Positions 9,751 through 59,194 of a stretch of 64,000 bases of DNA are shown one piece after another. The notes under the pieces were generated by a model. That model did no database searches. It was not told where the DNA came from and saw nothing but the letters and a program-made list of their open reading frames with translations. Numbering within the stretch: the first letter of the stretch is position 1; each line of letters begins with the position of its first letter. The stretch lies in NCBI GenBank assembly GCA_026705465.1, contig JAPPAP010000032.1:2693-66692 (forward strand), in the 5' to 3' direction. Position numbers and translations under genes: made by a program. Origin of the DNA: a bacterium (GTDB lineage Bacteria > Actinomycetota > Acidimicrobiia > Acidimicrobiales > Bin134).

Positions 9751-10625
9751 GGCTTGCCGACGCCGGGGACGGTGGCGTCGACGGCGTAGATGGAACCGGT
9801 CTTGGCCGCGGTCACCACTTCTCTCTTCCAGTCGTCGGCGGCGCATATAAGCAGGGTGCGGCGGTCGTCCCCCCCTAACACGCAGGCCACCGGCACTTTG
9901 GGCGCCATGTCGTAGGAGTCGGTCACCTCGCCGCCGGGCAACACCCGGAACACCCGCAGGCCCAGGGGATCGGCCACCCAGACTGCGCCCTCGGCGTCCA
10001 GGCAGATGCCATCGGGCGGGGCCACCGGCAGCTTGTCGGACTCGGGCACCAACTCGGCATAGACCCGGCGGTTGGACAGAGTGCCGTCGGGCGCCACGTC
10101 GAAGGCAGTGAGGCGGGAGGCGGCGCTCTCGGCCACGATCAGCGTGGTCTCGTCGGGGGTCAAGATGTGGCCGTTGGGGGCCTCCATTTCTGGCGCGCCC
10201 ACGCTCACCGATCCGTCGGGGGTCACCCTGAAGGTCTGGCCGGTGAACCGATCGCCCCCGGCGTGGATCCTCTGGCCCATATCGCCGATGTAGGCGGTAC
10301 CGTCGGAGCGCACGATCATGTCGTTGATGTCGCCGATGGCCAGCGGCGACAGGTCGGCGTGCTCCACCATGGACCCATCGGGCTCTTGGCGCAGCAGCTT
10401 CTGGGTGGACATGGCCACCACCAGCAGCCGGCCGTCGGGCAGCCATCCCAGCCCGGAGGGGTCGTCCCAGTCGACCACTGCCACCGTCTCGGCGTTGCCC
10501 TCCATGTCGGTGCGAACCACCCGGTGGGCGTGCATGTCGGAAAACCACAAAGCTCCGTCACGCCACCGGGGCCCTTCGGAGAAATTGAGCCCGTCCAAGA
10601 TCGTGCGCATCTGTTGCCTCCTCAT
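9747..10625 (-). CDS. SMP-30/gluconolactonase/LRE-like beta-propeller protein
   Basis: 292-aa ORF. FSEGPRWRDGALWFSD and the repeated DG..Y..D propeller-type segments fit this family. The start could be the second Met at about 10610. Confidence 0.75.
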   Translation of the reverse strand: MRRQQMRTILDGLNFSEGPRWRDGALWFSDMHAHRVVRTDMEGNAETVAVVDWDDPSGLGWLPDGRLLVVAMSTQKLLRQEPDGSMVEHADLSPLAIGDINDMIVRSDGTAYIGDMGQRIHAGGDRFTGQTFRVTPDGSVSVGAPEMEAPNGHILTPDETTLIVAESAASRLTAFDVAPDGTLSNRRVYAELVPESDKLPVAPPDGICLDAEGAVWVADPLGLRVFRVLPGGEVTDSYDMAPKVPVACVLGGDDRRTLLICAADDWKREVVTAAKTGSIYAVDATVPGVGKP

Positions 10626-55901: not shown

Positions 55902-56759
55902 ATGGCGGTGGAACTGGAATGGCTGGTGGACCAACCCTCCCAAACCAACCCGGTCATGGTGGTGGCCCTGGAGGGACTGTTCGACGCTGCTGATGCCGCC
56001 ACAACTGCGGTGCGTCTGATGAAGGAAAGCGCCAACAGCGTCGAACCGCTGGCCCACATCGACCCCGAGGGGTTCTTCAATTTCCAAGATCGACGCCCCG
56101 AAGTCCGTCTGGATGACAGCAGCAGACGGGTCATCGATTGGCCGTCAACCCAGGTAGACGCAGTGGAGCGCTTCGGCGCCAAGCACCCCCTGGTCATCGT
56201 GGACGGGGTAGAGCCCCACTTGCGGTGGCGGACCTTTGCCAACTACCTGGTGGAAGTGGCCACTGAGTGCCAGGCCGGGTTGGTGGTCACCCTGGGGGCC
56301 ATGGTCGGTCTCGCCCCTCACACACGACCGTTGGGAGTGGTGGGCAGCTCCACCAGTGCCGATCTCGCCCGCATGTTCGGCTTGGGCCGCCCCACCTACG
56401 AGGGCCCGACTGGCCTGGTGGGCGCGCTCCATGACGCCTTGGACCAGGCCCGCATACCGGTCATCTCTCTACGGGTGTCTGTCCCCCACTATGTGCCCGG
56501 ACCGCCCAATCCCGAAGCCACCCGGTCGTTGCTCAAGCGATTCGAGCTGATCACCGGCATAATCACCGATCACGCCGAGCTCGACGAGGCCGCAGCCGCT
56601 TGGCGGGAGCGGGTGGACGCTGCGGTAGCGGGCGACGACGACCTCAAGGACTACGTCGCCCAGCTTGAACGTCAGATCGATGAGGCCGACGACCTCCTCC
56701 CCACCGGCGACGACCTAGCCACCCAGTTCGAAGCCTTCCTCCGCGACCCCTGGAAATAG
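55902..56759 (+). CDS. PAC2 (proteasome assembly chaperone-like) family protein
   Basis: The ATG at 55902 gives a 285-aa protein. PVMVVALEGLFDAADAA..GPTGLVGAL resembles actinobacterial PAC2 family proteins. This assignment is from memory. Confidence 0.6.
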   Translation: MAVELEWLVDQPSQTNPVMVVALEGLFDAADAATTAVRLMKESANSVEPLAHIDPEGFFNFQDRRPEVRLDDSSRRVIDWPSTQVDAVERFGAKHPLVIVDGVEPHLRWRTFANYLVEVATECQAGLVVTLGAMVGLAPHTRPLGVVGSSTSADLARMFGLGRPTYEGPTGLVGALHDALDQARIPVISLRVSVPHYVPGPPNPEATRSLLKRFELITGIITDHAELDEAAAAWRERVDAAVAGDDDLKDYVAQLERQIDEADDLLPTGDDLATQFEAFLRDPWK

Positions 56760-56763
56760 GGTC

Positions 56764-57297
56764 TTACACCGCGGTCAAGCGGGCGACGGCTTCGTCGATG
56801 ACGGTGGTGGCCAACTTTTGGAGGGACTCGTCGTCGAGGGTGGAGACAGGGTGGGGGACGGTGACCGCGGGGTAGGAGGCCATGCCCACGGTGGGGGCGA
56901 ATGACTCGACCACCGGCTGGAAGGGCTCAGTAACCAGCAGCATTGAGGGGATACCGCGGGATTCCATGTGAACGGCGTCGTGCAGACTGCACGCCGTGCA
57001 GGCGCCTCAATCGCCAAGGCCAGAGATGATGAGGTGGGATCGGGCGGCCAGCATCTCGGCGTCATCGGAGTCGATGGGCTTGCCCGCCGCCGATTTGGAG
57101 TGGACCACGATGTCGGCCACCGGAAGGCGCTCCCGCAATCCTTCGGCCAGGTAAGTAAGCAGTTCTTTGGCGTTGTTCTTGGCGTTGTCAATCACCCCGA
57201 TGACCACAGGCTCGGTCGGCATCTGGCGAGGCGCCATGGCCACCTGCTCGACCTGGGCTTCCTCATAGACCGGCGACAACACGGTTACAGACGACAC
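56764..57297 (-). CDS. Candidate selenoprotein (UGSC-type U-x-x-C protein). The in-frame TGA at 57007..57009 is read as Sec (codon 97 of 177).
   Basis: RBS GGAAGGAG lies 5 nt before the GTG at 57297. The frame is open across a single TGA: ..SHLIISGLGD-U-GACTACSLHDAVHMESRGIPSML.. A hairpin follows directly. The track splits this into ORFs 57007..57477 and 56764..56967, which are in the same frame. Confidence 0.7.
56974..57006 (-). promoter_or_regulatory. Candidate bacterial SECIS hairpin immediately 3' of the in-frame UGA
   Basis: The RNA reads UGA GGCGCCUGCACGGCGUGCAGUCUGCACGACGCC. The upper stem is CGUGC(A)/(U)GCACG and the lower helix is GGCG/CGCC. The loop G and U fall at nt 23 and 24 counted from the U of UGA. 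Confidence 0.55.
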
Positions 57298-57310
57298 CAG
57301 AACTCCTTCC

Positions 57311-58372
57311 TCACGCCAAGGGTAGCCCGTCGCCCGGCGCGGCCACCCTTCGAGTGACCGCCACCGAGTGAACCGTCGGCGCCCAGTTGGGGATGTAGGC
57401 CGACCATCCCGCCCCCGCGCTGCCCGCAGTGACCAGGAAGATGTCGTGGGGCCCTCGGACCGTGTTGAGCTTGCCATCGGCGTCGGGGGTCATGTCGTTT
57501 TGGGCGGTGAACTCCAGCAGAACCCCGCCCGCGGCCAAATGCTCGGGAGTCACCCTGCTGTGCTCGGCCAAGAACTCCCGCACCATCAGCTTGGTCCAGC
57601 CGGCCTCGGCCAGGATCTGGCGGTGCTCGTGGCCGATCACCAGCAGCACTTGGTGCTTCTTGGCCACTGGGTAAGTGGCCGGGCCGGTCATGGCGGCGAC
57701 GAAGGTCAACAGGATGCCCTCGGGGTCGCCGTTGAGGTGGTTGGCCACCTGATGCGGGCTCTCGGAGGGAAACATGGTCACCGTGGTGTCGTCCTTTCCG
57801 TAGCCCAGTTCCACCCGCAGCGGTGGCCACCCTTCGGGCGGGGGCTCTTCGGCCACCAGCATGGTGTACTTGCCGGGGTGGCCCAGTGATGATCCGTCGA
57901 GGGTGTCCGACCGGGCCCCCAACACGTTCATGGCCACCAGCCGCAGCGCCCGCCCCACCGTGGCGTTGGCCCGGTGGCCCGGCCCTAGGGCATTTCGCCC
58001 AGTGTTGAACCCCAATTCGGCCACCAAGGGCCCGCTCACCACCGCGCACAATGCGGCCCCGCCGGTGCTGGTCACAACGGTGTGGCATCCGAACTGGGGA
58101 TCGAACATGGCCGACAGTCCAGCCAGCACTACCGGGAAGTACTCGGGGCGGCACCCGGCCATCACCGCGTTGACGGCGGCCTTCTCTGCGGTCACTTCCC
58201 GCGACCGCTCCGGCACATTGCCCACGATGTCGGCTGCCCCCACTCCGGCATAGTCGAGCATGGCCTCAACTCGCTCCGGGGTGGGCGGAATGACCGGAAG
58301 CCCGTCGGTCCACCCCCGCTCGAAGAACTCCTCTTGGACATCCGCCTCGGCGAGCACCAACTCCTGAGCCAT
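57311..58372 (-). CDS. Conserved protein of unknown function, immediately upstream of the selenoprotein candidate
   Basis: 353-aa ORF with real-protein composition. The N-terminus reads FFERGWTDGLPVIPPTPERV. Its stop is 13 nt before the downstream GTG. I did not recognise a catalytic family. Confidence 0.6.
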   Translation of the reverse strand: MAQELVLAEADVQEEFFERGWTDGLPVIPPTPERVEAMLDYAGVGAADIVGNVPERSREVTAEKAAVNAVMAGCRPEYFPVVLAGLSAMFDPQFGCHTVVTSTGGAALCAVVSGPLVAELGFNTGRNALGPGHRANATVGRALRLVAMNVLGARSDTLDGSSLGHPGKYTMLVAEEPPPEGWPPLRVELGYGKDDTTVTMFPSESPHQVANHLNGDPEGILLTFVAAMTGPATYPVAKKHQVLLVIGHEHRQILAEAGWTKLMVREFLAEHSRVTPEHLAAGGVLLEFTAQNDMTPDADGKLNTVRGPHDIFLVTAGSAGAGWSAYIPNWAPTVHSVAVTRRVAAPGDGLPLA

Positions 58373-58399: not shown

Positions 58400-59194
58400 G
58401 TGACCGGAAGACTGACAGGCAAGAGAACCATCGTGACCGGCGCAGGCTCGGGCATCGGCAAGGCCGCGGCCCAGTTGTTCGCGGCCGAGGGGGCCCAGGT
58501 GATGTGCGCCGACATCAACCGCGACGCTGCCGCCGCCACTGCGGCTGAGATCGGAGACCAGGCCATCAGCCAACAGGTGGATGTGACCCAGCCCGACGAT
58601 TGCCAGGCCATGACCGAGCGGGCCGTCACCGCCTTCGGAGGCCTCGATGCGGTGTACTCCAACGCCGGTGTCGACGGCCCCGGCCGGGCTGGCGATCTCA
58701 GCTTGGAGGAGTGGAACCGGGTCATCGGGGTGAACCTCACCGGCAAATGGCTGGCAGTCAAGTTCGCCATACCCCACCTCATCAAAGCCGGCGGCGGATC
58801 GCTAGTGCTCCAGGCCAGCGTCGGAGGAGTGATCGGAGTACCGGGCATTGCCGCTTACGCCGCGGCCAAGTCCGGGGTGATCGGCCTCACCCGGCAGATG
58901 GCGGTGGACTATGGACCCGACGGCATCCGGGTCAACGCCATCTGCCCCGGCACGGTGCCGACTCCCTTGGTGCGAGCCACCTACGAGAAGCGGGGCGGCT
59001 TCTCGGCCACCGCCGCTGTGGCGGCCGACGCCACCGTCGATGAGATGATCGAGGCCGCCGTGATCCGCCACCCCATCGGCCGGCTGGGCACCACCGAAGA
59101 CATCGCCCAACTCGCCGTGCACCTGGCTTCTGACGAATCGTCGTGGACCACCGGCACCGCCATCGTCATCGACGGCGGCATGTCGGTAGCCTGA
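58400..59194 (+). CDS. SDR family oxidoreductase
   Basis: The GTG at 58400 gives [26 protein letters not shown] and YAAAKSG are present. Confidence 0.85.

What the first reader, a model, noticed from the sequence alone, without database searches (positions are those of the whole stretch)
56764..57297. One in-frame UGA fuses two 'small ORFs' into a 177-codon U-x-x-C selenoprotein candidate (UGSC type)
- **Two ORFs, one frame.** The ORF track lists two minus-strand ORFs, 57007..57477 (ending ..AARSHLIISGLGD-TGA) and 56764..56967 (MESRGIPSM..). They are in the same frame.
- **Open across the TGA.** The 13 codons between the TGA and the downstream ATG (GACTACSLHDAVH) contain no stop.
- **Only the upstream part has a start signal.** GGAAGGAG sits 5 nt before the GTG at 57297, and that GTG is 13 nt after the preceding gene's stop. 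The 67-aa fragment has no purine-rich RBS of its own.
- **Redox context.** The TGA lies in D-U-G-A-C-T, so Sec would sit three residues before a Cys, a redox-pair arrangement.
- **Known family.** As I recall, a 'UGSC-containing' selenoprotein family of unknown function was described from marine-metagenome selenoproteome surveys. NCBI uses the name 'UGSC family (seleno)protein'.
- **Why it matters.** Routine callers would truncate it, split it or label it a pseudogene. Sec use is patchy in Actinobacteria.
Basis: partly seen in the sequence, partly recalled or inferred. Interest (0 to 1): 0.85.

Follow-up and report, generated by a model that had tools for sequence, protein, structure and literature searches.

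The report
UGSC-family selenoprotein gene, split by callers
The two small ORFs are one 177-codon gene for a known selenoprotein family (UGSC) whose in-frame UGA almost certainly encodes selenocysteine; the finding is correct, but it is an ordinary new member of a family of unknown function.

Summary
A GTG at 57297 opens a minus-strand frame that runs to the TAA at 56764, with one in-frame TGA at 57009-57007.

- **Family.** The read-through product matches Pfam UGSC (PF24696) end to end (E 4.8e-46) and NCBIfam NF041046, "UGSC family (seleno)protein", just above its cutoff.
- **Sec/Cys pattern.** In 58 Acidimicrobiia species genomes the same column is TGA and the downstream frame is conserved under purifying selection. 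One close relative has TGT. Twenty distant homologues have Cys codons.
- **SECIS-type hairpin.** A 6-bp hairpin with a GUY loop lies 13 nt after the UGA. It is intact in every Sec form and in only 1 of 20 Cys forms, and its synonymous sites are frozen. It sits in the same register as the E. coli fdhF SECIS and shares its 3' arm.
- **Partner gene.** An uncharacterised 353-aa gene always sits next to UGSC, upstream in all but one locus, and is fused to it elsewhere.
- **Fold.** The UGSC fold is predicted to be flavodoxin-like, with Sec at a helix N-cap in a UxxCxxC motif.
- **Open point.** Sec machinery could not be checked in this lineage. Related contigs carry a Sec-type selD.

This is a new member of a known family, of modest interest.

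The parts
56764..57297 (-). Complete UGSC-family (seleno)protein gene: 177 codons plus TAA, GTG start, one in-frame TGA.
   Evidence: Translation. Pfam PF24696 positions 2-171/172, E 4.8e-46, and NF041046 at 125.5 bits against a cutoff of 125. The ENA gene caller starts the first fragment at the same GTG. Homologues begin M-S-x-I-T-V-L-x-P.
57007..57009 (-). Predicted selenocysteine codon (UGA, residue 97), first residue of a U-G-A-C-T-A-C (UxxCxxC) motif.
   Evidence: TGA at this column in 58 Acidimicrobiia species genomes, TGT in L041, and TGC/TGT in 20 distant homologues. In the AF2 model of a Cys homologue the residue sits between strand 88-94 and helix 97-112.
56977..56994 (-). SECIS-type hairpin. 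The core CGUGCA-GUC-UGCACG is at 56993-56979, with loop G23 U24 C25 at 56987-56985 (U of UGA = 1). An optional G16-C33 pair has A32 bulged.
   Evidence: - 301 of 301 cells are paired in 43 distinct Sec-form sequences, with one compensatory G-C to A-U change in L055, which breaks the alternative upstream hairpin.
- Synonymous sites are frozen: GCG 58/59, AGT 59/59, CAC 58/59.
- All six pairs form in 38 of 38 Sec forms and in 1 of 20 Cys forms.
- Register and 3' arm (GUCUGCAC, positions 23-30) are the same as in the E. coli fdhF SECIS, whose sequence was verified.
57303..57310 (-). Shine-Dalgarno-like GGAAGGAG, 5 nt upstream of the GTG start.
   Evidence: Read directly from the sequence.
57311..58372 (-). 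Conserved 353-aa partner gene of unknown function. It has no Pfam or NCBIfam family, and its stop is 13 nt before the UGSC start.
   Evidence: - It lies next to UGSC in all 84 loci with the motif, both Sec and Cys forms and across phyla; it is upstream in every locus except L080.
- It is fused to a UGSC domain in P0069: 36% identity over 346 aa, E 8e-57.
- More than 7200 homologues, all named hypothetical.
- No family hit even at E <= 1.
- AF2 pLDDT 89.3, with only weak fold matches at TM < 0.3.
58400..59194 (+). Divergently transcribed short-chain dehydrogenase (SDR), a recurrent neighbour of the partner-UGSC pair.
   Evidence: Gene calls with Pfam adh_short in L004 and L001. An SDR also lies directly downstream of UGSC in Caballeronia (L089) and in L091. 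The association is inferred, not tested.

Best explanation
Window 56764-57297 (minus strand) is one gene for a UGSC-family selenoprotein of an uncultured sponge-associated Acidimicrobiia bacterium, close to Candidatus Poriferisocius / marine group Sva0996.

**Recoding (inferred).** Translation starts at GTG 57297, behind a strong Shine-Dalgarno site, and is probably coupled to the upstream partner gene. At UGA 57009-57007 the ribosome inserts selenocysteine instead of terminating. A hairpin lies 13 nt downstream (CGUGCA-GUC-UGCACG) and presents G23-U24 in its loop, in the register of the E. coli fdhF SECIS. It would recruit SelB carrying Sec-tRNASec.

**Protein.** The product is 177 aa. Its fold is predicted, from a model of a 47%-identical Cys homologue, to be flavodoxin-like alpha/beta. 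Sec97 sits at the N-terminus of a helix, followed by Cys100 and Cys103 (UxxCxxC).

**Function (inferred).** Sec97 is the redox-active nucleophile. It would form a selenenylsulfide with Cys100, possibly relayed to Cys103, and would be re-reduced by a thiol system such as thioredoxin. The protein most likely works as the small redox subunit of a two-component enzyme with the 353-aa partner, which is always encoded next to it and is sometimes fused to it. An adjacent SDR is often present as well.

**What is shown and what is not.** Gene structure, family membership, the Sec/Cys column and the conserved hairpin are shown. SelB-dependent Sec insertion, complex formation and the redox chemistry are inferred. 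The substrate is unknown.
For: - **Family membership.** Full-length HMM matches span the TGA. Both caller fragments hit PF24696.
- **Sec/Cys pattern.** The column is TGA in 58 Acidimicrobiia species genomes, TGT in one close relative, and Cys codons in 20 distant homologues. Database proteins either end at ...GLGD or carry C at this column; one carries W.
- **Downstream part is translated.** dN/dS is about 0.07-0.3, like upstream. The 13 codons before the internal ATG are invariant, and that ATG is absent in 16 of 59 sequences.
- **RNA-level selection only in Sec forms.** GCG 58/59, AGT 59/59, CAC 58/59, and GAT 59/59 before the UGA. The hairpin is 100% paired with one compensatory change. It is intact in 38 of 38 Sec forms against 1 of 20 Cys forms. 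Loop register and 3' arm match the fdhF SECIS.
- **Sec use in the class.** Six related contigs (L042-L046, L048) carry a selD with TGA at the catalytic Cys column, 4-5 kb from partner-UGSC. Sec machinery is reported in Actinomarinales, another order of Acidimicrobiia (bioRxiv 10.64898/2026.04.03.716425). SelD is listed for bin134, the genome of L022.
- **Partnership.** Adjacency in 84 of 84 loci and a fusion protein. A UGSC/Unknown_1 fusion was already noted in PMC2398784.
- **Redox context.** Thioredoxin and thioredoxin reductase genes lie next to the pair in Caballeronia.
- **Fold.** AF2 pLDDT 91.6; the top PDB matches are flavodoxins and FMN reductases.
Against: - No tRNA-Sec, selA, selB or selD lies in the 64-kb window.
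- Table S4 of Slaby et al. 2017 lists SelA = 0 and SelB = 0 (SelD = 1) for bin134, a 90%-complete MAG of the same lineage.
- The whole region does not fold better than shuffled sequence (z = 0.63), and no Rfam SECIS model matches. Bacterial SECIS elements are poorly covered by Rfam.
- Covariation support for the hairpin rests on a single compensatory event. Most of the stem is also constrained by the conserved peptide A-C-S-L-H.
- The NCBIfam score is only 0.5 bit above the cutoff.
- There is no biochemical evidence for Sec insertion, complex formation or any activity of this family.
Confidence: 0.88

Rival explanations
1. Split gene or pseudogene. The TGA is a real stop. The 96-aa N-terminal piece and the 67-aa piece starting at ATG 56967 are made separately, or the gene is decaying.
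For: Gene callers annotate it this way. An ATG exists 13 codons after the TGA in this window.
Against: - The TGA is conserved in 58 species genomes.
- The 13 codons between the TGA and the ATG are invariant at the protein level.
- The ATG is missing in 16 of 59 sequences, where it is replaced by CTG or TTC.
- There is no Shine-Dalgarno site before it.
- The downstream part is under purifying selection.
- Cys homologues are single continuous proteins.
Confidence: 0.03
2. The UGA is read through, but not as selenocysteine. Near-cognate or suppressor tRNA would insert Trp, Cys or Gly, or termination would dominate, because the Poriferisocius / Sva0996 lineage lacks SelA and SelB.
For: Slaby et al. 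2017, Table S4: bin134 has SelD = 1, SelA = 0 and SelB = 0. There are no sel genes in the window.
Against: - That MAG is only 90% complete, in 224 contigs. selA and selB are often adjacent, so one missing contig could remove both.
- The conserved hairpin has a G-U loop in the fdhF register, which is what SelB recognises.
- Sec/Cys interchange at a UxxC site is the signature of selenoproteins.
- Related Acidimicrobiia contigs carry Sec-type selD.
- TGA is used as an ordinary stop by the neighbouring gene.
Confidence: 0.05
3. Sequencing or assembly error: TGC or TGT misread as TGA in this metagenome scaffold.
For: A single-base difference separates TGA from TGT or TGC. L041 does have TGT.
Against: The same TGA appears in two independent assemblies of this sequence (L004, L005). 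It also appears in 58 species-level genomes from many projects, including closed long-read chromosomes.
Confidence: 0.01

Closest known systems
UGSC-containing selenoprotein family (Zhang and Gladyshev, marine metagenome selenoproteomes; NCBIfam NF041046, Pfam PF24696)
   Same: - Full-length HMM match and a size of about 180 aa.
- Sec/Cys at a UxxC motif directly after a G-[LV]-G-D strand end.
- Mostly aquatic bacteria.
- Fusion or association with an unknown domain, called 'Unknown_1' in PMC2398784.
   Different: - The motif here is U-G-A-C, not U-G-S-C.
- The host is a sponge-associated Acidimicrobiia.
- The literature guessed a thioredoxin-like fold (PMC2398784, PMC13188914). The AF2 model of a homologue is flavodoxin-like instead.
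E. coli fdhF SECIS (SelB-binding hairpin)
   Same: - A hairpin lies immediately downstream of the UGA.
- Loop G23-U24 and the 3' arm GUCUGCAC occupy identical positions 23-30 counted from the U of UGA.
- The spacer between the UGA and the stem varies freely at synonymous sites.
   Different: - The loop has 3 nt (GUY), not 4 (GGUC).
- There is no bulged U17.
- The spacer is 13 nt rather than 11 nt.
- No conserved lower stem was found.
- Binding to any SelB is untested.
Selenoprotein B of glycine, sarcosine, betaine and D-proline reductases (GrdB/GrdF/GrdH/PrdB; PF07355, TIGR01917/01918)
   Same: - UxxCxxC after Sec (PMC6778437, PMC13188914).
- Weak HMM hits to three GrdB-type models in one consistent register: residues 81-175 against model positions 331-424.
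- Both work with a second, separately encoded subunit.
   Different: - Scores are far below the cutoffs (15.8 against 602 bits; 12.5 against 65).
- There is no Pfam GRDB hit in any of 50 members.
- The protein is much smaller.
- The partner shows no similarity to GrdE or PrdA, nor to any Pfam or NCBIfam family.
- The hosts are aerobes, not Stickland fermenters.
Thioredoxin-fold UxxC/CxxU selenoproteins (Trx-like, Prx-like, SelW-like)
   Same: A redox pair in which Sec is three residues from Cys, placed at the N-terminus of a helix after a beta strand. Cys-form homologues exist.
   Different: The predicted topology is a five-stranded parallel flavodoxin-like sheet. No thioredoxin-fold protein appears among the top 50 PDB matches.

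Membership tests
UGSC family (seleno)protein (NF041046 / PF24696) | Full-length profile match above the curated cutoff. | tested here: met
   PF24696: 157.5 bits against a cutoff of 25, positions 2-171/172. NF041046: 125.5 bits against a cutoff of 125, with U scored as C.
UGSC family (seleno)protein (NF041046 / PF24696) | Sec or Cys at the first position of the U/C-G-x-C motif, aligned with Cys in homologues. | tested here: met
   TGA aligns with Cys in P0002, P0003 and 20 genome loci. Truncated database entries end at GLGD.
UGSC family (seleno)protein (NF041046 / PF24696) | Single-domain protein of about 175-195 aa. | tested here: met
   This protein is 177 aa. Most of the 150 best representatives are 175-195 aa.
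Bacterial SelB-dependent selenoprotein gene | In-frame UGA with a conserved, selected reading frame on both sides. | tested here: met
Bacterial SelB-dependent selenoprotein gene | SECIS hairpin shortly downstream of the UGA, with G-U in the apical loop. | tested here: met
   The hairpin spans positions 17-31 with loop G23 U24 Y25. It is conserved in all Sec forms and lost in 19 of 20 Cys forms, with frozen synonymous sites and one compensatory change. No Rfam model matches.
Bacterial SelB-dependent selenoprotein gene | selA, selB, selC (tRNA-Sec) and selD present in the same genome. | tested here: inconclusive
   - None is in the window.
- The published table for bin134, of the same lineage, lists SelD = 1, SelA = 0 and SelB = 0 in a 90%-complete MAG.
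- Related contigs carry Sec-type selD.
Bacterial SelB-dependent selenoprotein gene | Selenium actually incorporated at the UGA (75Se labelling or mass spectrometry). | not testable with these tools
   Experimental.
GrdB/PrdB selenoprotein B family (PF07355, TIGR01917/01918) | Profile match above the family threshold. | tested here: not met
   TIGR01917: 15.8 bits against 602. TIGR01918: 12.5 bits against 65.45. No PF07355 hit in 50 members.
GrdB/PrdB selenoprotein B family (PF07355, TIGR01917/01918) | UxxCxxC motif after Sec. | tested here: met
   U97-G-A-C100-T-A-C103. The motif is defined for GrdB/F/H in PMC6778437.
GrdB/PrdB selenoprotein B family (PF07355, TIGR01917/01918) | Partner is a GrdE/PrdA-type pyruvoyl proprotein. 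| tested here: not met
   The partner family matches no Pfam or NCBIfam model, even at E <= 1.
Thioredoxin-fold redox selenoproteins | Thioredoxin fold. | tested here: not met
   The AF2 model of homologue P0358 (47% identity, pLDDT 91.6) has a beta-alpha repeat topology. Its best PDB matches are flavodoxins, FMN reductases and lumazine synthase, at TM 0.4-0.5. The window protein itself could not be submitted.

The most novel reading that the evidence does not exclude
The Poriferisocius / Sva0996 lineage really lacks SelA and SelB, as the COG table for bin134 suggests, yet keeps a conserved UGA plus hairpin in this gene. That would mean a non-canonical way of decoding this UGA.

A milder and more likely novel reading is also open. 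Partner plus UGSC would form a so far unrecognised two-subunit selenoenzyme, remotely related to GrdB/PrdB-type reductases, that works in aerobes. I put that at about 0.2-0.3.
Probability: 0.04. Interest if true: 0.85.

Novelty: new member of a known kind. Interest (0 to 1): 0.3.

Why it matters
- **Annotation.** This gene and its orthologues in dozens of Acidimicrobiia MAGs, including closed chromosomes, are split or truncated by gene callers. Recognising the UGA as Sec restores a complete protein. It also marks these sponge symbionts as probable selenium users.
- **Biology.** The UGSC family is one of the most abundant selenoprotein families in aquatic metagenomes, and its function is unknown. 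Three points from this work give a concrete starting point for experiments. It is always encoded next to a large uncharacterised 353-aa family. It has a flavodoxin-like rather than a thioredoxin-like predicted fold. It shares the UxxCxxC signature of GrdB.
- **Limit.** None of this changes the field's picture. The family and its Sec/Cys dichotomy have been known for about 20 years.

Tried and rejected
- **Rfam.** A scan of the window at gathering thresholds, and of 56700-57350 at E <= 10, gave no SECIS or tRNA-Sec hit. This says little, because bacterial SECIS elements are poorly covered.
- **Whole-region fold.** The MFE fold of the 66 nt after the UGA is no better than shuffles (z = 0.63). 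The local comparative analysis was used instead.
- **Alternative hairpin.** The hairpin UGCAC-NGC-GUGCA, positions 10-22, was rejected. It has no double change and is broken in L055, exactly where the SECIS-register hairpin shows a compensatory change.
- **ARAGORN 'tRNA-SeC'.** The call in L056 at 9945-10039 overlaps the partner stop and the UGSC start, is absent from sister loci, and has no Rfam support. It is a false positive.
- **'SelB' tblastn hits.** The hits near UGSC in L041-L049 are TypA/BipA GTPases, and those in L083 and L090 are IF2.
- **Sequence search against PDB.** Only spurious weak hits (P-loop of ArsA, OspI) for UGSC, and nothing for the partner.
- **Fold search for the partner.** Only low-TM matches (<0.3) to class I fumarate hydratase, Toblerone-fold amidohydrolases and chorismatase. 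No assignment was made.
- **Structure prediction of the window protein.** A 47%-identical Cys homologue was modelled instead.
- **GOS supplements.** The UGSC/Unknown_1 figure is an image and the sequence file is cut, so identity of 'Unknown_1' with the partner is inferred, not shown.
- **Other read-through candidates.** A GC3 screen for other TGA read-through candidates in the window found nothing convincing.

Full report
**1. The observation**

On the minus strand, a GTG at 57297 opens a frame of 177 sense codons that ends at TAA 56766-56764. The GTG is preceded by GGAAGGAG at 57310-57303 and lies 13 nt after the TGA stop of the upstream gene. The only interruption is a TGA at 57009-57007, in the context ...AARSHLIISGLGD-TGA-GACTACSLHDAVH-ATG.... 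The only correction is that the motif is U-G-A-C-T-A-C.

**2. Family**

With U written as C, the read-through protein matches Pfam PF24696 (UGSC) over positions 2-171 of 172, at E 4.8e-46. It also matches NCBIfam NF041046, "UGSC family (seleno)protein", at 125.5 bits against a cutoff of 125. In public assemblies of this same scaffold (ENA ROBB21-1 scaffold_350, 72.6 kb, and a second assembly) the gene is called as two pieces of 96 and 67 aa. Both pieces hit PF24696.

**3. Sec/Cys column**

- The first protein search returned four entries that end exactly at ...ISGLGD, one with W at the column, and two with C in GLGDCGACSACS.
- A scan of one genome per species found 80 loci. The closest (83-94% identity) are MAGs named Candidatus Poriferisocius, Acidimicrobiales, or marine group Sva0996.
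- Reading the codon in every locus gave three groups. It is TGA in 58 Acidimicrobiia genomes (L006-L040, L042-L064). It is TGT in one close relative (L041). It is TGC or TGT in 20 distant homologues from Pseudomonadota, Solirubrobacterales and others.
- Downstream of the TGA the peptide GACTACSLHDA is invariant in all Sec forms. The ATG that starts the second fragment here is present in only 43 of 59 sequences.
- dN/dS downstream of the TGA is 0.07-0.09 against close relatives and about 0.3 against distant ones, comparable to upstream.

So the TGA is not an error, the gene is not a pseudogene, and the second piece is not an independent gene.

**4. The recoding signal**

The mRNA after the UGA reads GGCGCCUGCACGG-CGUGCA-GUC-UGCACG-AC.

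- *Frozen synonymous sites.* Across 59 distinct Sec-form sequences, the synonymous positions inside this hairpin do not vary: Ala GCG 58/59, Ser AGT 59/59 (other Ser columns in the same gene prefer TCC or TCG), Leu YTG only, His CAC 58/59. The codons between the UGA and the stem (GGN, GCN, ACN) vary freely. The Asp codon before the UGA is GAT in 59 of 59, although Asp is mostly GAC elsewhere in the gene.
- *Pairing.* On 43 distinct sequences, the six-pair stem plus one outer G-Y pair is 100% paired. There are two wobble-tolerant positions and one compensatory G-C to A-U change, in L055.
- *Alternative hairpin.* A hairpin that uses the same central arm is broken by that very change.
- *Specificity to Sec forms.* All 38 distinct Sec forms keep 6 of 6 pairs. 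Among 20 Cys forms only L041 does; the others keep 2-5.
- *Comparison with fdhF.* Counting from the U of UGA, the loop is G23-U24-Y25 and the 3' arm is U26-G31. I confirmed the E. coli fdhF SECIS sequence against 5,413 E. coli genomes. It has G23-U24-C25-U26-G27-C28-A29-C30 at identical positions.
- *Caveats.* Covariation rests on one event, part of the stem is also fixed by the peptide, the region as a whole does not fold better than shuffles, and Rfam has no matching model.

The selective freezing of synonymous sites in Sec forms only is the stronger argument.

**5. Sec machinery**

- *Window.* It has no tRNA. None of its called genes carries SelA, SelB or SelD domains.
It lies 4-5 kb upstream of their partner-UGSC pair. 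All six have TGA at the catalytic Cys17 column, HGAG*GCK. That is a second selenoprotein gene on the same contigs.
- *False leads.* The 'SelB' hits were TypA/BipA or IF2.
- *Literature.* Sec machinery is reported for all 84 complete Actinomarina genomes, which belong to the class Acidimicrobiia (bioRxiv 10.64898/2026.04.03.716425). Slaby et al. 2017 noted SelA and SelB enriched in sponge symbionts. Their Table S4, however, gives SelD = 1, SelA = 0 and SelB = 0 for bin134, which is the genome of locus L022, with 91% identical UGSC. That MAG is 90% complete.

I treat this as unresolved, not as a refutation.

**6. The protein and its partner**

- *UGSC fold.* An AlphaFold2 model of a 47%-identical Cys homologue has pLDDT 91.6. 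It is a five-stranded alpha/beta domain whose best PDB matches are flavodoxins, FMN reductases and lumazine synthase, at TM 0.4-0.5. The Sec-equivalent Cys sits between strand 88-94 and helix 97-112, at the helix N-cap. The older guess of a thioredoxin-like fold (PMC2398784) is not supported.
- *Motif and GrdB.* The motif UxxCxxC is the one described for GrdB/F/H (PMC6778437, PMC13188914). The window protein gives weak hits to three GrdB-type models in one register. Scores are far below threshold, and no Pfam GRDB hit appears in 50 members. This is a lead, not membership.
- *Partner: distribution.* The 353-aa upstream gene is next to UGSC in all 84 loci with the motif, both Sec and Cys forms and in several phyla; it is upstream in every locus except L080. 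It is fused to a UGSC domain in P0069. This probably corresponds to the 'UGSC/Unknown_1' fusion noted in 2008.
- *Partner: identity.* It has more than 7200 homologues, all 'hypothetical', and no Pfam or NCBIfam match even at E <= 1. Its model is confident (pLDDT 89.3) but has only low-TM structural neighbours.
- *Neighbours.* An SDR gene is a recurrent neighbour. In Caballeronia, thioredoxin and thioredoxin reductase lie divergently upstream.

**7. Most likely mechanism**

SelB-dependent Sec insertion at UGA 57009-57007 is directed by the hairpin at 56993-56979. It gives a 177-aa flavodoxin-like protein. Its Sec97-Cys100(-Cys103) centre would cycle between selenol/thiol and selenenylsulfide. 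The protein would act as the redox subunit of a two-component enzyme with the 353-aa partner and would be re-reduced by a thioredoxin-type system. Gene structure, family, the Sec/Cys column and hairpin conservation are shown. Sec insertion, the complex and the chemistry are inferred. The substrate is unknown.

**8. Novelty and score**

UGSC-containing proteins were among the most abundant selenoprotein families in the GOS data, with 255 Sec and 21 Cys sequences (PMC2398784). They were counted in 26 genomes by Peng et al. 2016 and are listed with NF041046 in a 2026 review. This gene is therefore a new member of a known kind. What is modestly new here:

- the fdhF-like SECIS;
- the constant partner gene;
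- the fold prediction;
- the breadth of the family in Acidimicrobiia sponge symbionts.

Interest is 0.3.

Noticed in passing
L042 5199-6230; also L043, L044, L045, L046, L048 (TGA at L042 5241): selD lies 4-5 kb upstream of the partner-UGSC pair in six marine Acidimicrobiales contigs. It has TGA at the catalytic Cys17 column (HGAG*GCK), so it is a Sec-type SelD. A hairpin AGCUCAC-GUC-GUGAGCU with the same GUC triloop follows, with its loop about 37 nt from the UGA.
   Followed up: partly
window 57311-58372 (-): The 353-aa partner belongs to a very large family (more than 7200 clusters at E <= 0.001) with no Pfam or NCBIfam model. Its AF2 model is confident (pLDDT 89) but resembles no solved structure well. 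It has an invariant N-terminal T-D-G-L-P-x3-P-T motif and an invariant Cys74.
   Followed up: partly
L041 1081 (TGT): One MAG closely related to the Sec forms has TGT (Cys) at the Sec column but still keeps the full SECIS-type hairpin. This suggests a recent Sec-to-Cys switch, or a base-calling variant.
   Followed up: no
L014, L017 10555-10625 (-); L034 10525-10595 (-); L056 9945-10039 (+): ARAGORN-nt 'tRNA-Cys' or 'tRNA-Trp' just downstream of UGSC. The window equivalent lies inside the 3' end of the PAC2-family gene. It also calls a 95-nt 'tRNA-SeC' that overlaps the UGSC start in L056. Anticodons are inconsistent, the calls are absent from sister loci, and Rfam gives no support in L056, so these are probably false positives.
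   Followed up: partly
L089 4106-5557 (Caballeronia sp. J97): Thioredoxin and thioredoxin reductase genes lie divergently next to a Cys-form partner-UGSC-SDR cluster. This fits a thiol-redox role.
   Followed up: no
window 57010-57012 (-): The Asp codon directly before the UGA is GAT in 59 of 59 Sec forms, while Asp codons elsewhere in the gene are mostly GAC and Cys forms use both. This may be a context effect on recoding (U before the UGA).
   Followed up: no
window 1-47000: The rest of the window is dense in catabolic and oxidoreductase genes. It holds several luciferase-like monooxygenases, Amidohydro_2 genes, P450s, SDRs, two DAO-FAO_M-GCV_T (sarcosine/dimethylglycine oxidase-like) genes, two xanthine-dehydrogenase-family molybdoenzymes, a fused hydantoinase A/B and a truncated globin. 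This is typical of sponge-symbiont Acidimicrobiia. No selenium-related genes are present.
   Followed up: partly
P0035 (453 aa): An apparent partner-UGSC 'fusion' aligns to the partner only over its first 214 residues, and then to UGSC at residues 311-422. It looks like a frameshifted gene call rather than a true fusion. P0069 (560 aa, UGSC at the N-terminus and partner at the C-terminus) is a clean fusion.
   Followed up: partly
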